Positions 7,563 to 63,800 of a stretch of DNA of 64,000 nucleotides are shown in pieces (position 1 is the stretch's first letter; each line of letters begins with the position of its first letter). A model generated the notes under the pieces. That model searched no databases. It was not told where the DNA came from and saw only the letters and a program-made list of their open reading frames with translations. A program made the translations under genes and the position numbers. Origin of the DNA: Escherichia phage vB-Eco-KMB38. Where the stretch lies: sequence record OR525701.1. One strand, given 5' to 3'.

Positions 7563-9134
7563 ATGAAATTTAATATCTTAAGTTTGTTTGCTCCATGGGC
7601 AAAAATGGACGAACGTGATTACAAAGACCAAGAAAAAGAAAATTTAGAATCTATCACCACACCAAAATTAGACGACGGTGCTAAAGAATACGAAGTATCT
7701 GAAAATGAAGCACAGCAAACATATAATGCTATGTTTCAGAGAATGTTCGGTAGTCAAGAACCAGGGCTCAAATCAACACGTGAATTAATCGATACGTATC
7801 GAAATTTGATGACGAACTATGAAGTGGATAATGCAGTCTCTGAAATAGTTTCCGATGCTATCGTATATGAAGATGATACAGAAGTCGTTTCTATAAATTT
7901 AGACAACACAAAATTTAGTCCAAATATCAAATCAATGATGTTGGATGAATTTAACGAAGTGTTAAATCATTTATCTTTCCAACGTAAAGGTTCAGATCAT
8001 TTTAGACGTTGGTATGTGGATTCTCGAATTTTCTTCCATAAAATTATTGACCCTAAACGCCCTAAAGAAGGTATTAAAGAGCTTCGTCGTTTAGACCCAC
8101 GTCAAGTTCAATATGTCCGTGAAGTTATTACAACCACTGAAGCCGGTGTTAAAATAGTCAAGGGTTATAAAGAATATTTCATTTATGACACATCACACGA
8201 ATCTTATGCTTGTGATGGTCGCATATATGAAGCTGGCACAAAAATAAAAATCCCTAAAGCCGCGATTGTTTATGCCCATTCTGGTTTAGTTGATTGTTGT
8301 GGTAAAAATATCATTGGTTATTTGCATCGGGCTATTAAGCCGGCAAACCAATTAAAACTTCTTGAAGATGCCGTCGTAATTTATCGTATTACTCGTGCTC
8401 CTGATCGTCGTGTATGGTACGTTGATACAGGTAATATGCCTTCAAGAAAAGCAGCAGAACATATGCAACATGTTATGAATACGATGAAAAACCGTATTGC
8501 ATATGATGCTACTACAGGCAAGATTAAAAACCAGCAGCATATTATGTCGATGACCGAAGATTATTGGTTACAACGACGTGATGGTAAAGCAGTAACAGAA
8601 GTTGATACATTACCGGGTGCAGATAATACTGGAAATATGGAAGATGTACGTTGGTTCCGTAATGCGCTTTATATGGCTTTACGTATTCCTATTACCCGTA
8701 TTCCAAGCGACCAAGGTGGTATACAGTTTGATGCTGGTACTTCTATTACACGAGATGAATTGTCGTTTGGTAAATTTATTCGTGAGCTGCAACATAAATT
8801 TGAAGAGATATTCCTAGACCCGCTTAAAACTAATTTAATTCTTAAAGGAATTATTACAGAAGATGAGTGGAATGATGAAATAAATAATATTAAGATAAAA
8901 TTTCATCGGGATAGTTATTTCTCGGAATTAAAGGATGCTGAGATTCTGGAGCGTCGCATTAATATGCTTCAGATGGCCGAACCATTTATTGGTAAATATA
9001 TTTCTCACAGAACAGCTATGAAAGATATTCTTCAGATGTCTGACGAGGAAATTGAACAAGAGGCTAAGCAAATTGAAGAAGAGTCGAAAGAGGCTCGTTT
9101 CCAAGACCCCGACCAAGAACAAGAGGATTTTTAA
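7563..9134 (+). CDS. 20: portal vertex protein gp20
   Basis: 523 aa, late promoter upstream; synteny and size. Confidence 0.93.
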
Positions 9135-10433: not shown

Positions 10434-10463
10434 ATAATGTAATCTAAACCACAGGACACTAAA

Positions 10464-11276
10464 ATGATCAAAGAACAACTTTTGAAAGAAGCTCAGAATA
10501 TCGAGACTTCAGTTGCTCTTAATAGTGTTTTCGAATCAGTAGAACTGTCTCCGGACGTTAAAGCTAATTTCAGCACTGTATTCGAAGCCACCGTTAAGCA
10601 GGAAGCAGTCAAACTGGCTGAATCTCATATTAAAGCCATCGCCGAAAAAGCCGAAGAAGAAGTTGAAAAGGCTAAAGAAGATGCTGAAGAGAAAGCTGAT
10701 AAAAAATTGGCTGAACAAGCTTCTAAATTCCTAGACCATCTTGCAAAAGAATGGCTCGCAGAAAACCAAATCGCAGTTGATAAAGGCATTAAAGCTGATT
10801 TGTTCGAATCCATGCTTGGTGGTCTGAAAGAACTGTTTGTTGAACATAACGTTGTTGTTCCAGAAGAATCTGTAGATGTTGTAGCAGAAATGGAAGAAGA
10901 GCTGGCCGAACATAAAGAAGAAACCGCTCGTTTGTTCGAAGAAGTTGCCAAACGTGATGCATATATCAATTACGTTCAGCGTGAAACCGCTATTAATGAA
11001 AGCGTAAAAGACCTGACTGAATCTCAGAAAGAAAAAGTTATTGGCCTGGTTGAAGGTATGGATTATTCTGACGCATTTGGTACTAAGTTAACTGCTATTG
11101 TAGAAATGGTTAAAGGTTCTACTAAAGAAGAAGCCGCTATTACCGAAAGTATAAATACAGTTGACAATGACGCTGCCGGTCTTAATTTTGTTGCCGAAGC
11201 AGTTGACACTACCACAACTCAGGTAGAACAGAATTCTAATGTAAGTTTATATGCGAAAGTCGCATCTCGTTTCTAA
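10464..11276 (+). CDS. 22: prohead core scaffold protein gp22
   Basis: 270 aa, highly charged coiled-coil-like sequence; synteny. Confidence 0.9.
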   Translation: MIKEQLLKEAQNIETSVALNSVFESVELSPDVKANFSTVFEATVKQEAVKLAESHIKAIAEKAEEEVEKAKEDAEEKADKKLAEQASKFLDHLAKEWLAENQIAVDKGIKADLFESMLGGLKELFVEHNVVVPEESVDVVAEMEEELAEHKEETARLFEEVAKRDAYINYVQRETAINESVKDLTESQKEKVIGLVEGMDYSDAFGTKLTAIVEMVKGSTKEEAAITESINTVDNDAAGLNFVAEAVDTTTTQVEQNSNVSLYAKVASRF

Positions 11277-13214: not shown

Positions 13215-13244
13215 ATAGTATCACATACCAAATACGTTGTAAAC
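13215..13244 (-). promoter_or_regulatory. early promoter (GTTTAC-N18-TACTAT) for the 89-aa ORF
   Basis: Minus strand GTTTACaacgtatttggtatgtgaTACTATagac upstream of the ATG at 13184. Confidence 0.65.
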
Positions 13245-15972: not shown

Positions 15973-16175
15973 TTCTTCACCTTTTTGTTAATCAAACGTT
16001 TACGGTATACAACTTTTTCTTTTGCTTTAAACTTTGACCGAGCTGTCTCGGCTTTAGTCCATAGTAATCCAACTTCTTTAGGTTGTAAACCGATTTTTTG
16101 AGCAATTTCTACGAATGAAAATCCCGCCTCATGTAATGTATAAACTTCAACCTCAGTTCTCATAATCAATCTCAT
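15969..16175 (-). CDS. hypothetical protein with HTH-like segment (24.3-like)
   Basis: 68-aa basic protein; segment FSFVEIAQKIGLQPKEV resembles a helix-turn-helix. Confidence 0.55.
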   Translation of the reverse strand: MRLIMRTEVEVYTLHEAGFSFVEIAQKIGLQPKEVGLLWTKAETARSKFKAKEKVVYRKRLINKKVKK

Positions 16176-24600: not shown

Positions 24601-25081
24601 TAAAAAGATAATGATTCCCAAATTAGGGCTCAAACATTATAATCTTTTAAAGGACGTTAAAGGTCCTGACGAAAACATGAAAATCTTAGCCGATTCTATT
24701 TGTAAAAATATGAGTCCCGCAGATTTTGATTTTGCATGTCTACACATATTGGAATTTAATAACAAACTTAAGTCTGAAGTTGAAAAAGATGGATTCACTT
24801 ATAAACTAGATGACGTCTATGTATGCCAACGAACAGAATTCCAATTTCAAGGTAATACTTTTTATTTTAGACCCCCAGGCAAATTTGAACAATTCGCTAC
24901 AATCAGTGAAATGTTATCAAATTGCTTAATAAAAGTTAATGACGAAGAGAAAGAAATTTCTTTCCTTGAGATGCCTGCTTTTGTAATCAAATGGGCAGAA
25001 GACCTTTCGACAACCATTGCTATTCCGGGCCCCAATGGCCCTATTAAGGGTATAGCAGAAATTATTGGATTGCTTGAATGA
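24548..25081 (+). CDS. 28: baseplate hub distal protein gp28
   Basis: 177 aa; overlaps the gp27 3' end as in T4. Confidence 0.85.
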
Positions 25082-29285: not shown

Positions 29286-29315
29286 ATAGTATCACACATC
29301 CATGTGTTTGTAAAC
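29286..29315 (-). promoter_or_regulatory. early promoter
   Basis: Minus strand GTTTACaaacacatggatgtgtgaTACTAT followed by the conserved leader caacaacatgaggaaaa and ATG. Confidence 0.65.
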
Positions 29316-36320: not shown

Positions 36321-36348
36321 ACGCACAAAAGGGAGACCGAAGTCTCCC
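36321..36348 (-). terminator. terminator after the 59-aa basic ORF
   Basis: Minus strand gggagacTTCGgtctccc followed by TTTTGTGCGTTT. Confidence 0.7.
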
Positions 36349-36353
36349 TAAAA

Positions 36354-36533
36354 TTATGCAACAACCTTTCCAAAACGAGAAGCATCATCTCGAAGAACTG
36401 CACGTGCTCTGCGCATGATCTTCTCAACGGTTTGATTAATACGAGAGTTCGACCCACGCTTGTATCCAGCGCGTTTAGAGGTACCATCAACTTTCTTTTC
36501 AACTGCTTTCTTTGCTTTAGCTTGTTTTGCCAT
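36354..36533 (-). CDS. hypothetical small basic protein (59 aa)
   Basis: Translation MAKQAKAKKAVEKKVDGTSKRAGYKRGSNSRIN...; AAAGAG RBS; UUCG terminator directly downstream; preferred over the overlapping TTG-start track ORF 36317-36502. Confidence 0.55.
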   Translation of the reverse strand: MAKQAKAKKAVEKKVDGTSKRAGYKRGSNSRINQTVEKIMRRARAVLRDDASRFGKVVA

Positions 36534-36844
36534 TATAAATTCTCTTTAAATGAAAATGCAGGACTTATTGACATTGCCTGCGCAAGCCCTCAAGGGGAAC
36601 ATAGGTTTTGAATATTTACCGACAGGATAACCATAAACCCGTCATCATACTTATAACTCTTATCTGTTGCACACCGTTAGCTTAAAGGTTCCGGGTTCGA
36701 TTTCTCGAGGATAAGATATATACTGATGGATATATAGGCCTTGAGGCGTACTCCCGATCGGCCATCACCTCGGGGTAGCATGCACTTGCCGCTATAAGAA
36801 TAACATTCAAGAGGTACACCGTAAAAATTGCCGGGGCGATACTT

Positions 36845-36871
36845 CAAAAACATATCGATTCGTAAATCGAT
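36845..36871 (-). terminator. terminator after rIII
   Basis: Minus strand atcgatttacgaatcgat hairpin followed by atgTTTTT. Confidence 0.6.
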
Positions 36872-36900
36872 AATCAGACAATTTCGACGGCTCCTCGATT

Positions 36901-37149
36901 TTACTTCAGGGTAATAACAAAATGACGAACTGCTTTACGTGCGGCAGAAGCCAGAGGCTTAGCATATTTCAATTCATCTTTAGCTTCCAGTTCAGCAGCC
37001 AGAGTAGCCTGAGCAGGATTCAGATGTTTGAAATATCGCAGGATTTCCAGTGCTTCGGCTTCAACATCAATTGACGCACCGTAGTTTTCGTGACCGTTAT
37101 TCCATGCGTTGCGTTGCAGTTCAAGAGCGTGTTGTAATTGTTTAATCAT
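36901..37149 (-). CDS. rIII: rIII lysis-inhibition accessory protein
   Basis: 82 aa, same length as T4 rIII; position adjacent to gene 31. Confidence 0.8.
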   Translation of the reverse strand: MIKQLQHALELQRNAWNNGHENYGASIDVEAEALEILRYFKHLNPAQATLAAELEAKDELKYAKPLASAARKAVRHFVITLK

Positions 37150-39921: not shown

Positions 39922-39951
39922 ATAGTATCACAACTCCACCATGTTGTAAAC
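39922..39951 (-). promoter_or_regulatory. early promoter driving the cd-proximal operon including the DAHP synthase gene
   Basis: Minus strand GTTTACaacatggtggagttgtgaTACTAT followed by caacacaatgaggaaa and ATG at 39892. Confidence 0.65.
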
Positions 39952-42045: not shown

Positions 42046-42075
42046 ATTATACTCTGCTCCTGAGAGTTTGTAAAC
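42046..42075 (-). promoter_or_regulatory. early promoter with -10 inside an inverted repeat
   Basis: Minus strand GTTTACaaactctcaggagcagagTATAATgctcc; ggagca/tgctcc flank the -10. Confidence 0.6.
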
Positions 42076-43451: not shown

Positions 43452-43481
43452 ATAGTAACACCTTCCTTGGTGTTTGTAAAC
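43452..43481 (-). promoter_or_regulatory. early promoter for alc
   Basis: Minus strand GTTTACaaacaccaaggaaggtgtTACTAT then caacaacacgaggagaaaatt-ATG. Confidence 0.65.
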
Positions 43482-44634: not shown

Positions 44635-44664
44635 ATTGTACCACAATCCTTGTGGTGTGTAAAC
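44635..44664 (-). promoter_or_regulatory. early promoter for rnlA
   Basis: Minus strand GTTTACacaccacaaggattgtggTACAAT upstream of the rnlA ATG at 44608. Confidence 0.6.
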
Positions 44665-53830: not shown

Positions 53831-54077
53831 AAAGCTCGACTACCTCTTCGTTTTCAGCTTCAAATTGGTCACGAGCATCTTTATGATAAAGAGCTAACAA
53901 ACGATTAAACATTTTTCCATCAACGCCAAGCTCTTCTTTAGCACGAGTACGAATGTCTTTAATCAGTTCATTATAACCAGAAATTTTAAGTTTGTTATCG
54001 GAAGCTTCCTTGACTAGTTTAGCCAGTTCTTCACCATGCACATCTTGATTAAATTCAACTGCTTCTTTCTTAGCCAT
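53808..54077 (-). CDS. dsbA: dsDNA-binding protein DsbA
   Basis: 89 aa from ATG (MAKKEAVEF...), matching T4 DsbA length; the track ORF starts 6 codons upstream. Confidence 0.85.
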   Translation of the reverse strand: MAKKEAVEFNQDVHGEELAKLVKEASDNKLKISGYNELIKDIRTRAKEELGVDGKMFNRLLALYHKDARDQFEAENEEVVELYDTVFTK

Positions 54078-54084
54078 GTTTACC

Positions 54085-60813: not shown

Positions 60814-63800
60814 ATGGCTACTTTAAAACAAATACAATTTAAAAGAAGCAAAACTGCAGGAGCACGTCCTGCCGCTTCAGTATTAGCCGAAGGTGAATTG
60901 GCTATAAACTTAAAAGACCGTGTACTTTTTACTAAAGATGACCAAGGAAATATTATTGATCTGGGTTTTGCTAAAGGTGGTAGTATTGACGGGAATGTTA
61001 TTCATACAGGCAATTATAACCAAACTGGCGATTATACTTTAAATGGCGAATGTTATTCATACAGGCAATTATAACCAAACTGGCGATTATACTTTAAATG
61101 GCACCTTCACTCAAATTGGCGATTTCAATCTCAAGGGTATTGCTCGCGTAACTCGTGATATTATTGCTGCGGGTCAGATAATGACCCATGGTGGCGAACT
61201 TATTACAAAAAGTTCAGGTACAGCACATGTTCGTTTTCATGATTTAGCTGACCGTGAACGTGGAATCATTTTTTCTCCTGCTAATGATGGATTAACTACA
61301 CAAGTTCTTAATATTAGAGTTCAAGATTACAAAGCTGGTTCAGAAAGCACTTTCGCTTTTAATGGAAATGGTTTGTTTTCTTCACCAGAAGTTTTTGGGT
61401 GGAAATCTGTATCAACTCCGGTAATTTATACCAATAAAGTTATCACCAATAAAAAAGTTAAAGATGATTATGACATCTATTCGATGGCAGACAATGTCCC
61501 ATTGTCTGAAAGCACTACTGCTATTAATCATCTACGTGTCATGCGCAATGCAGTCGGTTCTGGTATTTTCCATGAAGTTAAAGATAATGATGGAATAACT
61601 TGGTATAGTGGAGATGGATTAGATGCTTATCTTTGGTCATTTACCTGGAGCGGCGGAATTAAATCAAGTCACTCAATTTCTATCGGTTTAACACCCGGTA
61701 ATAAAGATTATTCAATATTAGGACCATCTAGCATTGCTTTAGGAGATAATGACACCGGGTTTAAATGGCATCAGGATGGATATTTTTTTACGGTAAACAA
61801 CGGTACAAAAACTTTCCTTTCTGGTCCGGCGGAAACCACTAGCCTTAGAAAAATGGTTATGGGTTATTCTGTAAATGGTACTGATTTGACTACTCCTCCA
61901 ACTGAAAACTATGCTCTTGCTACTGTTGTGACATATCACGATAATAACGCGTTTGGAGATGGTCAGACTCTTTTGGGATATTATCAAGGCGGTAACTATC
62001 ATCATTATTTCCGCGGCAAGGGTACCACAAACATTAATACTCATGGCGGTTTGTTAGTTACTCCAGGTAATATTGATGTTGTTGGCGGTTCGGTTAATAT
62101 CGATGGTAGAAATAATGCTTCTACGCTGATGTTTAGAGGTAACACGACCGGAGCTAGTTCAGTTGATAATATGACAATTTCCGTGTGGGGTAACACGTTT
62201 ACTAATCCTAGTGTAGGTAATCGTAAAAACGTCATGGAAATTTCTGATGCAACTAGTTGGATGAGCTATATTCAAAGACTTACTACTGGTGAAGTAGAAA
62301 TGAACGTTAACGGTTCATTTGAATCATCTGGTGTTACTGCTGGAAATAGAGGAGTTCACACAACAGGCGAAATTTCATCTGGAGCAGTGAATGCTCTTCG
62401 TATTTGGAATGCAGATTATGGAGTCATTTTTAGACGTTCGGAAGGTAGTCTTCATATTATTCCAACTGCTTATGGCGAAGGCAAAGATGGCGATATCGGT
62501 CCACTTCGTCCGTTTAGTATGTCTTTAGATACAGGTAAGGTCGTTATTCCTGACCTAGATTTGAGTCATACAACTTTTGCTGAAAATGGTTTTATTAAAT
62601 TCGGTGGGCATGGTGCTGGTGCCGGTGGTTATGATATTCAATACGGCCAAGCAGCTCCTGTTTTCCAAGAAATTGATGATGACGCGGTAAGTAAATATTA
62701 TCCTATTGTTAAGCAGAAATTCTTACAAGGAAAAGCTGTTTGGTCTTTAGGTACTGAAATTAATTCCGGGACTTTTGTTTTACACCATCTTAAAGAAGAC
62801 GGGACCGGTGGTCATACCTCAAGATTTAATGCTGATGGTACAGTTAATTTCCCTGATAATGTCCTGGTTGGCGGTGGTGAAGCTGCTATTGCTCGAAATG
62901 GTAATATTTTCTCTGATATTTGGAAAGTATTTACATCTGCAGGCGACGTAACTAATATTCGCGATGCAATAGCTACTCGTGTTTCTAAAGAAGGCGACAA
63001 GATGACTGGCACTCTTTGGATTAATAAAGATGCTGCTGGAATAGTTCTTAATCCTCCTTTGGCCAGTGATTCATCATTTATTCGTTCTGATACGGCCGGG
63101 GCCAATAATTGGTATATTGGTAAAGGCGGTGCCGACAATGGTCTAGGTTTTTACAGTTATGTTACACAAGGCGGTGTATACATAACAACTAACGGTGAAA
63201 TATCGCTTTCTCCTCAAGGCCAAGGAACATTTAATTTTAATAGAGACCGCCTCCATATAAACGGTACACAATGGACCGCACACCAGGGTGGTGGTTGGGG
63301 AAATCAATGGAATCAAGAAGCACCGGTATTTGTAGATTTTGGTAATGTTGGTAATGATAGTTATTATCCTATTATTAAAGGAAAATCCGGTATTACTAAT
63401 GAAGGATACATATCTGGTGTAGATTTTGGTATGCGACGCATTACTAATACATGGGCACAAGGTATTATTCGTGTAGGTAATCAGGAAAACGGTTACGACC
63501 CACAAGCTGTATATGAATTCCATCATAACGGTACTTTTTATGCTCCAAGCTTACTTAAGAGCAGTAGAGTATCAGCTGGTGGTGGTGACCCTGCATGGGG
63601 CGGGCCGTGTATTGTACTTGGAGATAACGATACCGGTTTGCTTTGGGAAGCAGACGGTATTTTCAACGCATATGCAAACGGCCAAGGTGTGTTTAGTTTT
63701 AGACCTGGTTTAGCTCAGACATTCGGTGATGTTAACTTCCACTGTAATGCAGGTATGTATGTTCGTGATAACATTGATGTTAACGACGTTTATATTCGTT

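What the first reader, a model, noticed from the sequence alone, without database searches (positions are those of the whole stretch)
36534..36900. Unusually long (~370 nt) structured non-coding gap between rIII and the next downstream gene
Intergenic spacers elsewhere in this window are mostly under 60 nt. This gap has no convincing ORF with an RBS and no canonical early promoter. It does contain a terminator hairpin right after rIII, several further stem-loops (for example ctcgagg...ccttgag enclosing an AT-palindromic hairpin at 36703-36746) and the palindromes CCGATCGG and GCATGC. It may encode a small RNA or regulatory leader for the 59-aa basic protein downstream, or be the remnant of a deleted gene.
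Basis: seen in the sequence. Interest (0 to 1): 0.45.

Follow-up and report, generated by a model that had tools for sequence, protein, structure and literature searches.

The report
New folded RNA downstream of rIII
The long gap after the phage lysis-inhibition gene rIII holds a previously undescribed, intricately folded 143-base RNA that is conserved in hundreds of T4-like phages yet missing from T4, T2, T6 and RB69, which probably explains why nobody has studied it.

Summary
The 367-nt gap (36534-36900) is real, non-coding and far longer than the window's median intergenic distance of about 9 nt. It is not a deletion scar. On the gene-sense (-) strand, 36795->36653 encodes a 143-nt RNA. A closing stem opens into a linker-free four-way junction. 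Two arms are joined by a 6-bp kissing-loop helix, and the third arm carries a three-way sub-junction. Across 24 distinct copies, 49 pairs are 99.0% paired and 27 covary; shifted-register controls give 30-41% pairing and 4-6 covarying pairs. Unpaired junction bases are more conserved than the stems. There is no tRNA, Rfam, E. coli genome, plasmid or bacterial-genome match. The internal ORF is broken by stops in 10 of 24 copies. The element is a discrete cassette. It occurs in 407 phage records from at least eight genera, always between rIII and 30.9, at two different insertion sites. It is cleanly absent from T4, T2, T6 and RB69. The rest of the gap holds a weak terminator-like hairpin, a degenerate early-promoter remnant, a conserved H-type pseudoknot that T4 also has, and the 30.9 leader. 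Function is unknown. The best guess is an autonomous binding RNA (aptamer, decoy or scaffold) co-transcribed with rIII.

The parts
36901..37149 (-). rIII (lysis-inhibition accessory protein), the upstream gene. The RNA always lies downstream of it on the same strand.
   Evidence: ORF; PHROG 1457, E = 2e-43; annotated rIII in relatives.
36884..36898 (-). Mini-hairpin UCGA-GGAGCCG-UCGA with GGAG exposed in the loop. It is a possible RegB endonuclease site; this is inference only.
   Evidence: Sequence. Conserved in T4-type phages, the L081 genome (probably JS98), RB69 and T2. RegB substrate rule from PMC3014915.
36845..36873 (-). AU-rich 8-bp hairpin with a UACG (UNCG) tetraloop followed by GUUUUUG. 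It looks like a weak terminator for rIII and matches the stem-loop half of a degraded PeSL.
   Evidence: Fold energy -6.5 kcal/mol. The stem covaries between the window (AUCGAUU/AAUCGAU) and T4-type phages (AAUGAUU/AAUCAUU) in A8. The terminator scan missed it because the stem has too few G-C pairs.
36797..36825 (-). Degenerate early-promoter-like sequence TTTACG-N17-TATTCT directly upstream of the core. It misses the T4/PST PeSL consensus TTTACW-N17-TAYWAT at two positions.
   Evidence: consensus from PMC4122927. A start site here would remove the 5' strand of P1, which covaries, so this is probably not the RNA's promoter.
36653..36795 (-). Core structured RNA, 143 nt. P1 (36795-36791 / 36657-36653) closes a linker-free four-way junction. 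First arm: P2 (36790-88 / 36739-37), an invariant internal loop (AAGUGCAU / CUCAAG) and P3 (36779-68 / 36761-46). Second arm: P4 (36736-30 / 36723-17). Third arm: P5 (36716-10 / 36664-58), carrying P6 (36708-36697, GAAA loop), P7 (36696-92 / 36676-71, with the 15-nt loop GAACCUUUAAGCUAA) and J7/5 GCAACA.
   Evidence: MAFFT alignment plus RNAalifold. Pair counts: 49 pairs, 99.0% paired, 27 covarying, every helix with at least one covarying pair. Covariance-model hit of 183.8 bits. Coordinates.
36762..36767 (-). P3 terminal loop UGAUGG, the 5' half of the 6-bp kissing-loop helix.
   Evidence: 100% Watson-Crick pairing in all copies. Three of six pairs covary (CG/UA; GC/AU/UA; GC/AU).
36724..36729 (-). 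P4 terminal loop CCAUCA, the 3' half of the kissing-loop helix.
36604..36648 (-). 'Module 2', a conserved candidate H-type pseudoknot. S1 is AUGAC.GG / CC.GUCGU. S2 is GGUU / AACC and reaches 9 bp in relatives. L3 is A-rich. It is present in T4, T2 and RB69 as well, and lies 5' or 3' of the core depending on the phage.
   Evidence: A7: 78.9% paired against 33-49% for slid controls. Pairs 11/33, 12/32 and 22/51 are 100% paired with covariation. Unique in the window.
36581..36603 (-). 'Module 3', UAUGUUCCCCUUGAGGGCUUGCG. This small hairpin motif is nearly invariant in every relative aligned, including RB9. Its role is unknown.
   Evidence: Invariant columns in A1 and A8. Unique in the window.
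36548..36581 (-). Variable hairpin (GCAGG...CCUGC) followed by AUUUUCAUUU, forming the leader of 30.9. The stem differs and covaries between lineages.
   Evidence: -6.9 kcal/mol.
36354..36547 (-). Shine-Dalgarno region plus gp30.9 (59 aa, basic, function unknown), the downstream gene.
   Evidence: PHROG 1427. No Pfam, PDB or NCBIfam match.
36326..36352 (-). Strong intrinsic terminator GGGAGAC-UUCG-GUCUCCC plus a U-run right after 30.9. It is the probable end of the transcription unit that contains the RNA.
   Evidence: Sequence. Aligned as a terminator hairpin in weak Rfam hits.

Best explanation
The gap carries a self-contained RNA gene cassette. It is a 143-nt RNA transcribed in the sense of rIII and 30.9 that folds into a compact tertiary structure: a four-way junction, a 6-bp kissing-loop helix between two arms, and a three-way sub-junction. 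It has no canonical promoter of its own. It lies after a weak hairpin, so it is most likely made as part of the rIII(-30.9) transcript, which ends at the strong terminator after 30.9. It either stays as an autonomous domain of that transcript or is cut out of it. Because the junction and loop bases are near-invariant while the stems covary, it most likely works through its shape, binding a protein or small ligand as an aptamer, decoy or scaffold. Antisense pairing is unlikely. Its all-or-none distribution among close relatives, its two insertion sites and its high cross-genus conservation are what one expects of an accessory module exchanged by recombination at small intergenic motifs (PeSL-type shuffling). 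Shown: the RNA structure, its strand, its non-coding nature, its cassette behaviour and its distribution. Inferred: co-transcription with rIII, action as a binding RNA, and the accessory role.
For: Structure: a structure-blind MAFFT alignment of 11 copies gives 45 pairs, 97.4% paired, 20 covarying. With 24 distinct copies and the kissing helix it is 49 pairs, 99.0% paired, 27 covarying, against 30-41% and 4-6 for slid controls and 0/500 shuffles. The kissing helix is 100% Watson-Crick with 3 covarying pairs. Strand: 99.0% paired on the sense strand against 94.8% on the antisense strand, with 49 G.U cells. Non-coding: the ORF is broken in 10 of 24 copies. Shape-based function: 34 of 45 unpaired columns are at least 95% conserved, against 50 of 98 paired columns. 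Selection: core nucleotide identity is 77-92% against 62-84% for rIII and 30.9 in 8 of 9 comparisons. Cassette behaviour: the boundaries fall at or within a few bases of P1. Site 1 holds the core, nothing, or a different roughly 50-nt hairpin. Site 2 holds the core or nothing. Not tied to 30.9: spacing and module order vary, and T4, T2, T6 and RB69 lack the core but keep the 30.9 leader. No own promoter. In Moon, Cronus and L107 the core starts about 8-10 nt after the rIII stop. Distribution: 407 phage records with one copy each and 20 of 46 rIII loci. Shuffling mechanism precedent: PMC4122927.
Against: There is no expression data, and the 5' and 3' ends are unknown. Single-sequence folding is not significantly stable (z = -1.45). 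No partner, ligand or phenotype is known. The family is narrow, being confined to enterobacterial T4-like phages, so part of the conservation could reflect recent horizontal transfer. Only 24 distinct, phylogenetically related sequences support the statistics. The strict synteny between rIII and 30.9, and the constant proximity to the module-2 pseudoknot, would also fit a cis-acting role.
Confidence: 0.5

Rival explanations
1. The element is a cis-regulatory leader or riboswitch. The core would be an aptamer that senses a metabolite or protein and controls transcription read-through or translation of 30.9 and the genes beyond.
For: It is always upstream of 30.9 on the same strand. Its conservation pattern is aptamer-like, with invariant junctions and covarying stems. 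Its multi-way junction with a kissing loop recalls the lysine and purine riboswitches (recalled from general knowledge, not tested). Hairpins with U-runs lie downstream.
Against: No Rfam riboswitch model matches. The distance to the 30.9 start varies from about 50 to 165 nt, with different intervening modules. The pseudoknot lies before or after the core depending on the phage. No expression platform overlapping P1 is conserved. T4, T2, T6 and RB69 retain the same 30.9 leader without the core.
Confidence: 0.2
2. The element acts in cis on the transcript. It could be a processive antiterminator that binds RNA polymerase, a Rho-blocking element, or a decay barrier that stabilises rIII and downstream mRNA.
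For: It lies just after a weak terminator-like hairpin and before further hairpins. It is embedded in a polycistronic unit with no promoter of its own. In some genera it starts about 8-10 nt after the rIII stop codon, like a 3'-UTR element.
Against: A simple hairpin is enough for exonuclease protection, so the elaborate fold and invariant junction bases are not explained. It is dispensable in many close relatives. No similarity to any curated Rfam family was found.
Confidence: 0.13
3. The element is a new self-cleaving ribozyme that processes the rIII-30.9 transcript.
For: It is a compact multi-helix fold with invariant unpaired nucleotides. Small ribozymes are common in phage and mobile contexts (general knowledge).
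Against: There is no match to hammerhead, twister, twister-sister, pistol, hatchet, HDV or hairpin models in Rfam. No cleavage-site signature could be identified. Catalysis cannot be tested here.
Confidence: 0.1
4. The region is a non-functional remnant, a small protein gene, or a DNA-level or plus-strand element.
For: ORFs of 58 and 45 aa overlap the region, and some public records annotate 34-44-aa CDSs over it. The + strand contains a GGTTCGATT string that resembles a tRNA T-loop.
Against: The ORF is interrupted in 10 of 24 copies, and the window and the Klebsiella copy differ by 1 synonymous and 5 non-synonymous changes (and my reading). ARAGORN finds no tRNA, and the T-loop-like string is not conserved. 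G.U pairs favour the - strand. 27 compensatory pairs are incompatible with a decaying remnant.
Confidence: 0.04

Closest known systems
T4 stable RNAs rnaC (species 1, 139 nt) and rnaD (species 2, 119 nt)
   Same: They are phage-encoded structured non-coding RNAs of about 120-140 nt in T-even-type phages, with no known function. They are made as part of longer transcripts.
   Different: They lie in the tRNA cluster. rnaC has a tRNA-like GGTTCGAATCC T-arm sequence. The covariance model of the present RNA does not hit them. T4 has rnaC and rnaD but lacks this RNA.
Riboswitch aptamers built on multi-way junctions with loop-loop kissing (lysine riboswitch L2-L3, purine riboswitch L2-L3)
   Same: They share a closing P1, a junction, two side-by-side arms locked by a kissing helix, invariant junction nucleotides and covarying stems.
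   Different: There is no sequence or covariance-model similarity. No conserved expression platform or fixed distance to a regulated gene exists. The ligand is unknown. The comparison is architectural and rests on recall, not on a test.
PeSL (promoter-early stem-loop) mobile regulatory cassettes of T4-like phages (Arbiol 2010; Comeau 2014, PMC4122927)
   Same: They are small intergenic motifs at which cassettes are inserted, deleted or swapped between close relatives. The 5' part of this gap (hairpin, AT-rich stretch, TTTACG...TATTCT) looks like a degraded PeSL, and the core sits where a PeSL-flanked ORF cassette would sit.
   Different: The core is not a promoter or terminator and is not repeated in the genome (one copy per genome). 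The cargo here is an RNA, not an ORF. The promoter halves miss the consensus.
T-even gene 32 mRNA leader pseudoknot
   Same: This comparison applies to module 2 only. Both are H-type pseudoknots in the leader region of a T-even early or middle transcript.
   Different: The locus and sequence differ, and there is no evidence for gp32 binding. Module 2 lies upstream of 30.9 and is unannotated.
Orphan structured RNA classes found by comparative genomics (for example raiA, ROOL and GOLLD, some of them phage-associated)
   Same: They were also discovered by covariation, have complex folds and had no known function at discovery.
   Different: This RNA is much smaller than ROOL or GOLLD and is unrelated in sequence. 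It is restricted to T4-like enterobacterial phages.

Membership tests
tRNA / tRNA-like gene | Cloverleaf with a conserved T-loop and D-loop, detectable by ARAGORN or the Rfam tRNA model | tested here: not met
   ARAGORN found 0 genes in the window. No Rfam tRNA hit. The + strand GGTTCGATT string is GGTCCGATT in most relatives.
Any curated Rfam 15 family (4227 models, including riboswitches, small ribozymes and phage RNAs) | Covariance-model score at gathering threshold, or at least a consistent sub-threshold hit | tested here: not met
   No gathering-level hit in the window. No hit on the core at E <= 10, nor at E <= 1 in five divergent copies.
T4 rnaC / rnaD stable RNAs | Homology to the T4 species 1 or 2 RNAs, and location in the tRNA cluster | tested here: not met
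   Model R1 finds nothing in the T4 tRNA/rnaC/rnaD region L030. The sequences are dissimilar. The locus is different.
Structured RNA (generic) | Base pairs maintained by compensatory substitutions beyond the level of controls, on one strand | tested here: met
   27 of 49 pairs covary, 99.0% are paired, slid controls give 30-41%, and 0 of 500 shuffles reach the observed values. The same result comes from a structure-blind alignment. Sense 99.0% against antisense 94.8%.
Kissing-loop tertiary interaction | Watson-Crick complementarity between two hairpin loops, kept by covariation | tested here: met
   Six pairs, 100% paired in 24 copies, three covarying pairs, slid controls mostly 17-48% (updated). 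The covariance model used for the alignment did not include these pairs.
Riboswitch | Aptamer in the 5' UTR with an adjoining expression platform that overlaps the aptamer and controls the downstream gene | tested here: inconclusive
   The conservation pattern is aptamer-like. However, the spacing, module order and intervening elements before 30.9 vary, and the 30.9 leader exists without the core.
Riboswitch | Specific ligand binding | not testable with these tools
   Requires in-line probing or ITC.
Self-cleaving ribozyme | Site-specific self-scission | not testable with these tools
   Only negative Rfam matches to known classes are available.
PeSL (promoter-early stem-loop), applied to the 5' part of the gap | Stem-loop immediately upstream of a TTTACW-N17-TAYWAT promoter, followed by a Shine-Dalgarno sequence and start codon; dispersed copies in the genome | tested here: not met
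   The stem-loop is present. The promoter halves are TTTACG and TATTCT, missing the consensus, and no exact consensus lies in the gap. No ORF follows. It is best described as a degraded PeSL in the sense of PMC4122927.
H-type pseudoknot (module 2) | Two helices in which the loop of S1 forms S2 with downstream sequence, both supported by covariation | tested here: met
   78.9% paired against 33-49% for slid controls. Covariation score 0.32 against 0.05-0.15. Three pairs are 100% paired with double changes. Support is moderate and the outer pairs are variable.
Intrinsic terminator (hairpin after rIII) | Stable G+C-rich stem followed by a U-tract | tested here: inconclusive
   There is an AU-rich 8-bp stem with a UNCG loop and a U5 run, at -6.5 kcal/mol. 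It is not called by the scan, which needs at least 3 G-C pairs. It is probably leaky.
Small protein-coding gene | Open frame conserved, with substitutions biased to synonymous sites | tested here: not met
   The frame is truncated to 7 aa or fewer in 10 of 24 copies.

The most novel reading that the evidence does not exclude
The 143-nt RNA founds a new functional RNA class in T-even-type phages. It would be either a ligand-sensing or ligand-sequestering aptamer, for example a decoy or sponge for a host defence factor or signal, or a new small ribozyme. It would be carried as a mobile RNA-only cassette that phages gain and lose like an accessory anti-defence gene.
Probability: 0.3. Interest if true: 0.9.

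Novelty: categorically new. Interest (0 to 1): 0.72.

Why it matters
T4-like phages are the most intensively studied viruses of bacteria. [quoted passage not shown] Here is an RNA with the hallmarks of a functional tertiary fold. It is present in hundreds of sequenced relatives, including Klebsiella, Shigella, Yersinia and E. coli phages and the K-12-infecting BASEL phage Bas47. It is invisible to standard annotation, and several public records place spurious 34-44-aa ORFs over it. Its absence from T4, T2, T6 and RB69 explains why it was overlooked and provides natural minus controls. Its presence/absence pattern and cassette-like exchange suggest an accessory role that could affect host range or defence evasion. 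If it turns out to be an aptamer, decoy or ribozyme, it would be a new RNA class with a ready genetic system. The novelty rating means a new RNA family with no relative in Rfam or in the literature searched. Whether its mechanism is also new cannot yet be said.

Tried and rejected
1. tRNA or tRNA-like gene: ARAGORN was negative and the T-loop-like string is not conserved.
2. Known RNA family: Rfam at gathering and E-value thresholds, on the window and on five divergent copies, gave nothing.
3. Relocated copy of T4 rnaC or rnaD: the covariance model was negative on the T4 tRNA region.
4. Protein-coding ORF: the frame is broken in 10 of 24 copies.
5. Plus-strand RNA or a DNA palindrome: G.U asymmetry favours the - strand and + strand folding is unremarkable.
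6. Host RNA mimic or host-derived sequence: there was no blastn match in 5,426 E. coli genomes or 72,556 plasmids, and no exact 19-nt core match in 185,579 species genomes.
7. Wider distribution: looser patterns in IMG/VR returned 38 extra loci that the covariance model rejects as chance hits. The metagenome scan gave 14 true hits, all close copies scoring 180-190 bits, several on phage-sized contigs; their flanking genes were not checked.
8. Modules 2 and 3 as dispersed PeSL repeats: both are unique in the window.
9. Own early promoter: the consensus is absent from the gap. The promoter-like sequences upstream of the core would start transcription inside P1, which conflicts with the covariation in P1.
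11. gp30.9 as a recognisable RNA-binding partner: no Pfam, NCBIfam or PDB similarity was found.
12. Prior description: full-text searches found nothing for this locus. The 2023 survey of viral structured RNAs (PMC10690425) does not mention T4-like phages in its text, and its supplements are not held, so an anonymous listing there cannot be excluded.

Full report
**Locus.** The window is a T4-like phage, 99.9% identical over this region to Escherichia phage PTK and 99.6% identical to BASEL phage AlbertHofmann/Bas47. Genes here run on the - strand in the order cd, 31, rIII (37149->36901), a gap, gp30.9 (36533->36354), then 30.8. The gap is exactly 36534-36900, 367 nt. By a crude gene call the median intergenic distance in the window is 9 nt, and only one non-coding stretch is longer. 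The T4/PST early-promoter consensus TTTACW-N17-TAYWAT (PMC4122927) occurs 8 times in the window against 0.28 expected, but not in the gap.

**First screens.** ARAGORN found no tRNA. Rfam found nothing at gathering threshold in the window, and nothing on the gap at E <= 10. Single-sequence folding is unremarkable, with z = -1.45 on the - strand and +0.04 on the + strand. Thermodynamics alone would therefore have dismissed the region.

**Comparative signal.** BLAST against 50,697 phage records showed that gap positions ~122-258 (window ~36655-36791) are 93-95% identical in Klebsiella, Enterobacter and Edwardsiella phages of other genera. The rest of the gap is not conserved in this way. The long rIII-30.9 gap is itself conserved in position, at 245-332 nt. 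Aligning the gaps revealed a core of roughly 140 nt. It is present in the window and in the Klebsiella phage phi1_146043, PEi20, CIP9 and Cronus, and it is completely absent from T4-type RB9. The core alone hits 407 records, one copy each. The records examined belong to Kanagawavirus, Roskildevirus, Muldoonvirus, Kagamiyamavirus, Karamvirus, Moonvirus, Marfavirus and the window's own lineage.

**Secondary structure.** A structure-blind MAFFT alignment of 11 divergent copies was folded with RNAalifold on the - strand. It gave 45 pairs, 20 of them with compensatory double changes. Pair counting gave 97.4% of cells paired. Registers slid by 1-3 columns gave 30-42% paired and 0-5 covarying pairs, and 0 of 500 shuffles reached the observed values.

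**Kissing loop.** An all-against-all column scan exposed a loop-loop interaction. The 6-nt P3 loop pairs with the 6-nt P4 loop, as UGAUGG/CCAUCA in the window, CGAUGG/CCAUCG in most copies, CAAUGA/UCAUUG in Cronus, EcS1 and L100, and CUAUGG/CCAUAG in Muldoon. This helix is 100% Watson-Crick in every copy and 3 of its 6 pairs covary. The covariance model used to align the copies did not contain these pairs, so it could not bias them.

**Final statistics.** The most divergent copy, L100, adds compensatory changes in P2 and P7. With it, the model has 49 pairs in 8 helices, 99.0% paired, 27 covarying pairs, and every helix has at least one covarying pair. The same pairs read on the opposite strand give 94.8%, because 49 cells are G.U. 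The RNA strand is therefore the gene-sense strand.

**Not coding.** The 34-aa frame that some public records annotate is truncated to 7 aa or fewer in 10 of 24 copies.

**Anatomy in the window.**
- P1 (36795-91 / 36657-53) closes a four-way junction with no linker nucleotides.
- Arm 1 is P2, then an invariant internal loop (AAGUGCAU / CUCAAG), then P3.
- Arm 3 is P5, which carries P6 (usually with a GNRA loop, though not always), P7 (with a 15-nt conserved loop) and the invariant J7/5 sequence GCAACA.

Unpaired columns are more conserved than paired ones: 34 of 45 against 50 of 98 are at least 95% conserved. This pattern is typical of RNAs that act through tertiary contacts or a binding pocket. 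Those bases belong to other helices, and the pairing fails in Cronus and EK29.

**Distribution and cassette behaviour.**
- The invariant 19-nt core pattern is absent from one genome each of 185,579 bacterial and archaeal species.
- The core has no blastn match in complete E. coli genomes or in plasmids.
- In IMG/VR, pattern scans plus the covariance model find it on 19 contigs of 93-178 kb. 38 further pattern hits are rejected as chance.
- The metagenome scan gave 14 true hits, all near-identical to known copies and several on contigs of 165-174 kb. Their flanking genes were not examined.
- Of 46 rIII neighbourhoods, 20 carry the element. It is always on the rIII strand and starts from about 8 nt to about 120 nt after the stop codon.
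- T4, T2, T6 and RB69 all lack it.
- The core is 77-92% identical in nucleotide sequence to the window's copy where rIII and 30.9 are 62-84% identical. EcS1 is the exception.
- Whole-gap alignments show boundaries at or within a few bases of P1, and two insertion sites. At site 2, between the pseudoknot and module 3, they carry the core (the Klebsiella-type contig L089, PEi20, Muldoon) or nothing (L086, L101).

This is cassette-like gain, loss and replacement. It fits the modular shuffling at small intergenic promoter/stem-loop motifs (PeSLs) described for T4-like phages (PMC4122927).

**The rest of the gap (coordinates).**
- 36898-36884: a mini-hairpin with GGAG exposed in its loop. It could be a RegB site; this is inference from PMC3014915.
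- 36873-36845: an AU-rich hairpin with a UACG loop and a U-run, at -6.5 kcal/mol. Its stem covaries between the window and T4. It is a weak, probably leaky terminator.
- 36825-36797: TTTACG-N17-TATTCT, a degenerate early-promoter remnant. Together with the hairpin it looks like a degraded PeSL.
- 36648-36604: 'module 2', a candidate H-type pseudoknot with 78.9% of cells paired against 33-49% for slid controls, and three pairs fully paired with covariation. It is present in T4, T2 and RB69 too. It lies 3' of the core in the window, Moon, EcS1 and Cronus, and 5' of it in L089, PEi20 and Muldoon.
- 36603-36581: 'module 3', nearly invariant in every relative aligned.
- 36581-36548: a lineage-specific hairpin plus a U-rich tract, followed by the 30.9 ribosome-binding site.
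- 36352-36326: a strong UUCG-loop terminator right after 30.9, which probably ends the transcription unit.

Modules 2 and 3 occur only once in the window.

**Mechanism.** The following points are shown: a selected, tertiary-folded RNA on the sense strand; non-coding status; cassette-like presence/absence; independence from the exact 30.9 leader context. The following are inferred. The RNA is transcribed from upstream promoters through rIII, because there is no promoter consensus in the gap, because the core starts ~8-10 nt after the rIII stop in three genera, and because the promoter-like sequences nearby would start transcription inside P1, which covaries. It acts through its shape as a binding RNA, either released or as an autonomous domain. 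It is an accessory function.

My estimates are:
- about 0.95 that it is a genuine functional structured RNA;
- about 0.5 for the autonomous binding-RNA reading;
- 0.2 for a riboswitch or leader of 30.9;
- about 0.13 for a cis-acting transcription or decay element;
- about 0.1 for a self-cleaving ribozyme;
- 0.04 or less for a remnant, a peptide gene or a DNA-level element.

**Comparison with known systems.** The RNA is not a member of any Rfam family, not a tRNA, and not related to T4 rnaC or rnaD. Architecturally it resembles junction-plus-kissing-loop aptamers such as the lysine and purine riboswitches. That resemblance is recalled from general knowledge and was not tested. Its genomic behaviour resembles PeSL-flanked cassettes, except that the cargo is an RNA. 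Literature searches found no description of an RNA at this locus. The 2010 T4 review notes that no riboswitch or trans-acting RNA had been characterised in T4 and anticipates candidates from related genomes. A 2023 survey of more than 10,000 viral RNA motifs may list it anonymously, but this could not be checked.

**Verdict.** The element is a new RNA family of unknown function in a model phage group, with natural carriers and non-carriers available for experiments.

Noticed in passing
window 36604-36648 (- strand); also T4 L031/L074, RB69 L136:10425-10470, T2 L137: A conserved ~45-nt candidate H-type pseudoknot ('module 2') lies upstream of 30.9. It is present even in T4, T2 and RB69 and is unannotated. 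S2 covaries, for example GUUGGUU/AACCAAC, UUAGUAGUU/AACUACUAA and UUGUGAG/CUCACAA. It lies either 5' or 3' of the core RNA depending on the phage.
   Followed up: yes
window 36581-36603 (- strand): The 'module 3' motif UGUNCCCYUYGAGGGCUUGCG is nearly invariant in all relatives aligned. In some phages (CC31-like L088, L093, L116, EcS1) a copy sits right after the rIII stop codon instead. Its function is unknown.
   Followed up: partly
L136 (RB69) ~10455-10510; L137 (T2) ~8465-8515; L073, L083, L072: At the exact site where the window has the 143-nt RNA, RB69, T2 and others carry a different ~50-nt hairpin cassette (ACUAUCACGCGUCAGAAAAAGGUUAUCUGUCUAAGUCGUGGUUGG). The site therefore has three alleles: empty, small hairpin, or large RNA.
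   Followed up: partly
L074/L031 (T4) just after the rIII stop; L089, L104, L100 just upstream of the core: There is a conserved promoter-like module GGTGAnnnGCTACCnnAGTGCnnnCTAnAAAT, with a MotA-box-like TTTGCTACC and a TAAAAT/TAGAAA -10. Its position moves between lineages. It was not tested as a middle promoter.
   Followed up: no
window 36884-36898 (- strand): A mini-hairpin UCGA-GGAGCCG-UCGA displays GGAG in its loop 3 nt after the rIII stop. It is conserved in T4, T2, RB69 and L081 (probably JS98). It could be a RegB cleavage site that separates rIII mRNA from downstream RNA.
   Followed up: no
PP889492 CDS0050 (L002:1523-1627); COW86c_228 (L007:605-739): Public phage records annotate spurious 34-44-aa 'hypothetical proteins' over the RNA. 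The frame is not conserved, so these are probably mis-annotations.
   Followed up: partly
window 61075-61738, 62529-62811, 24799-25077, 53831-54084: These are other unusually long ORF-free stretches in the window by crude gene calling. None has an Rfam gathering-level hit. They were not examined further.
   Followed up: no
window 13215-13243, 16061-16089, 29286-29314, 39922-39950, 42046-42074, 43452-43480, 44635-44663 (all -), 60928-60956 (+): There are eight exact matches to the T4/PST early-promoter consensus TTTACW-N17-TAYWAT, against 0.28 expected by chance. Most share the -10 sequence GATACTAT or similar. The nearest one upstream of the rIII unit is at 39950.
   Followed up: no
window 36326-36352 (- strand): A canonical UUCG-tetraloop intrinsic terminator (GGGAGAC-UUCG-GUCUCCC-UUUU) lies immediately after 30.9. 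It produced weak Rfam hits to the terminator parts of unrelated sRNA families, and the simple terminator scan missed it.
   Followed up: partly
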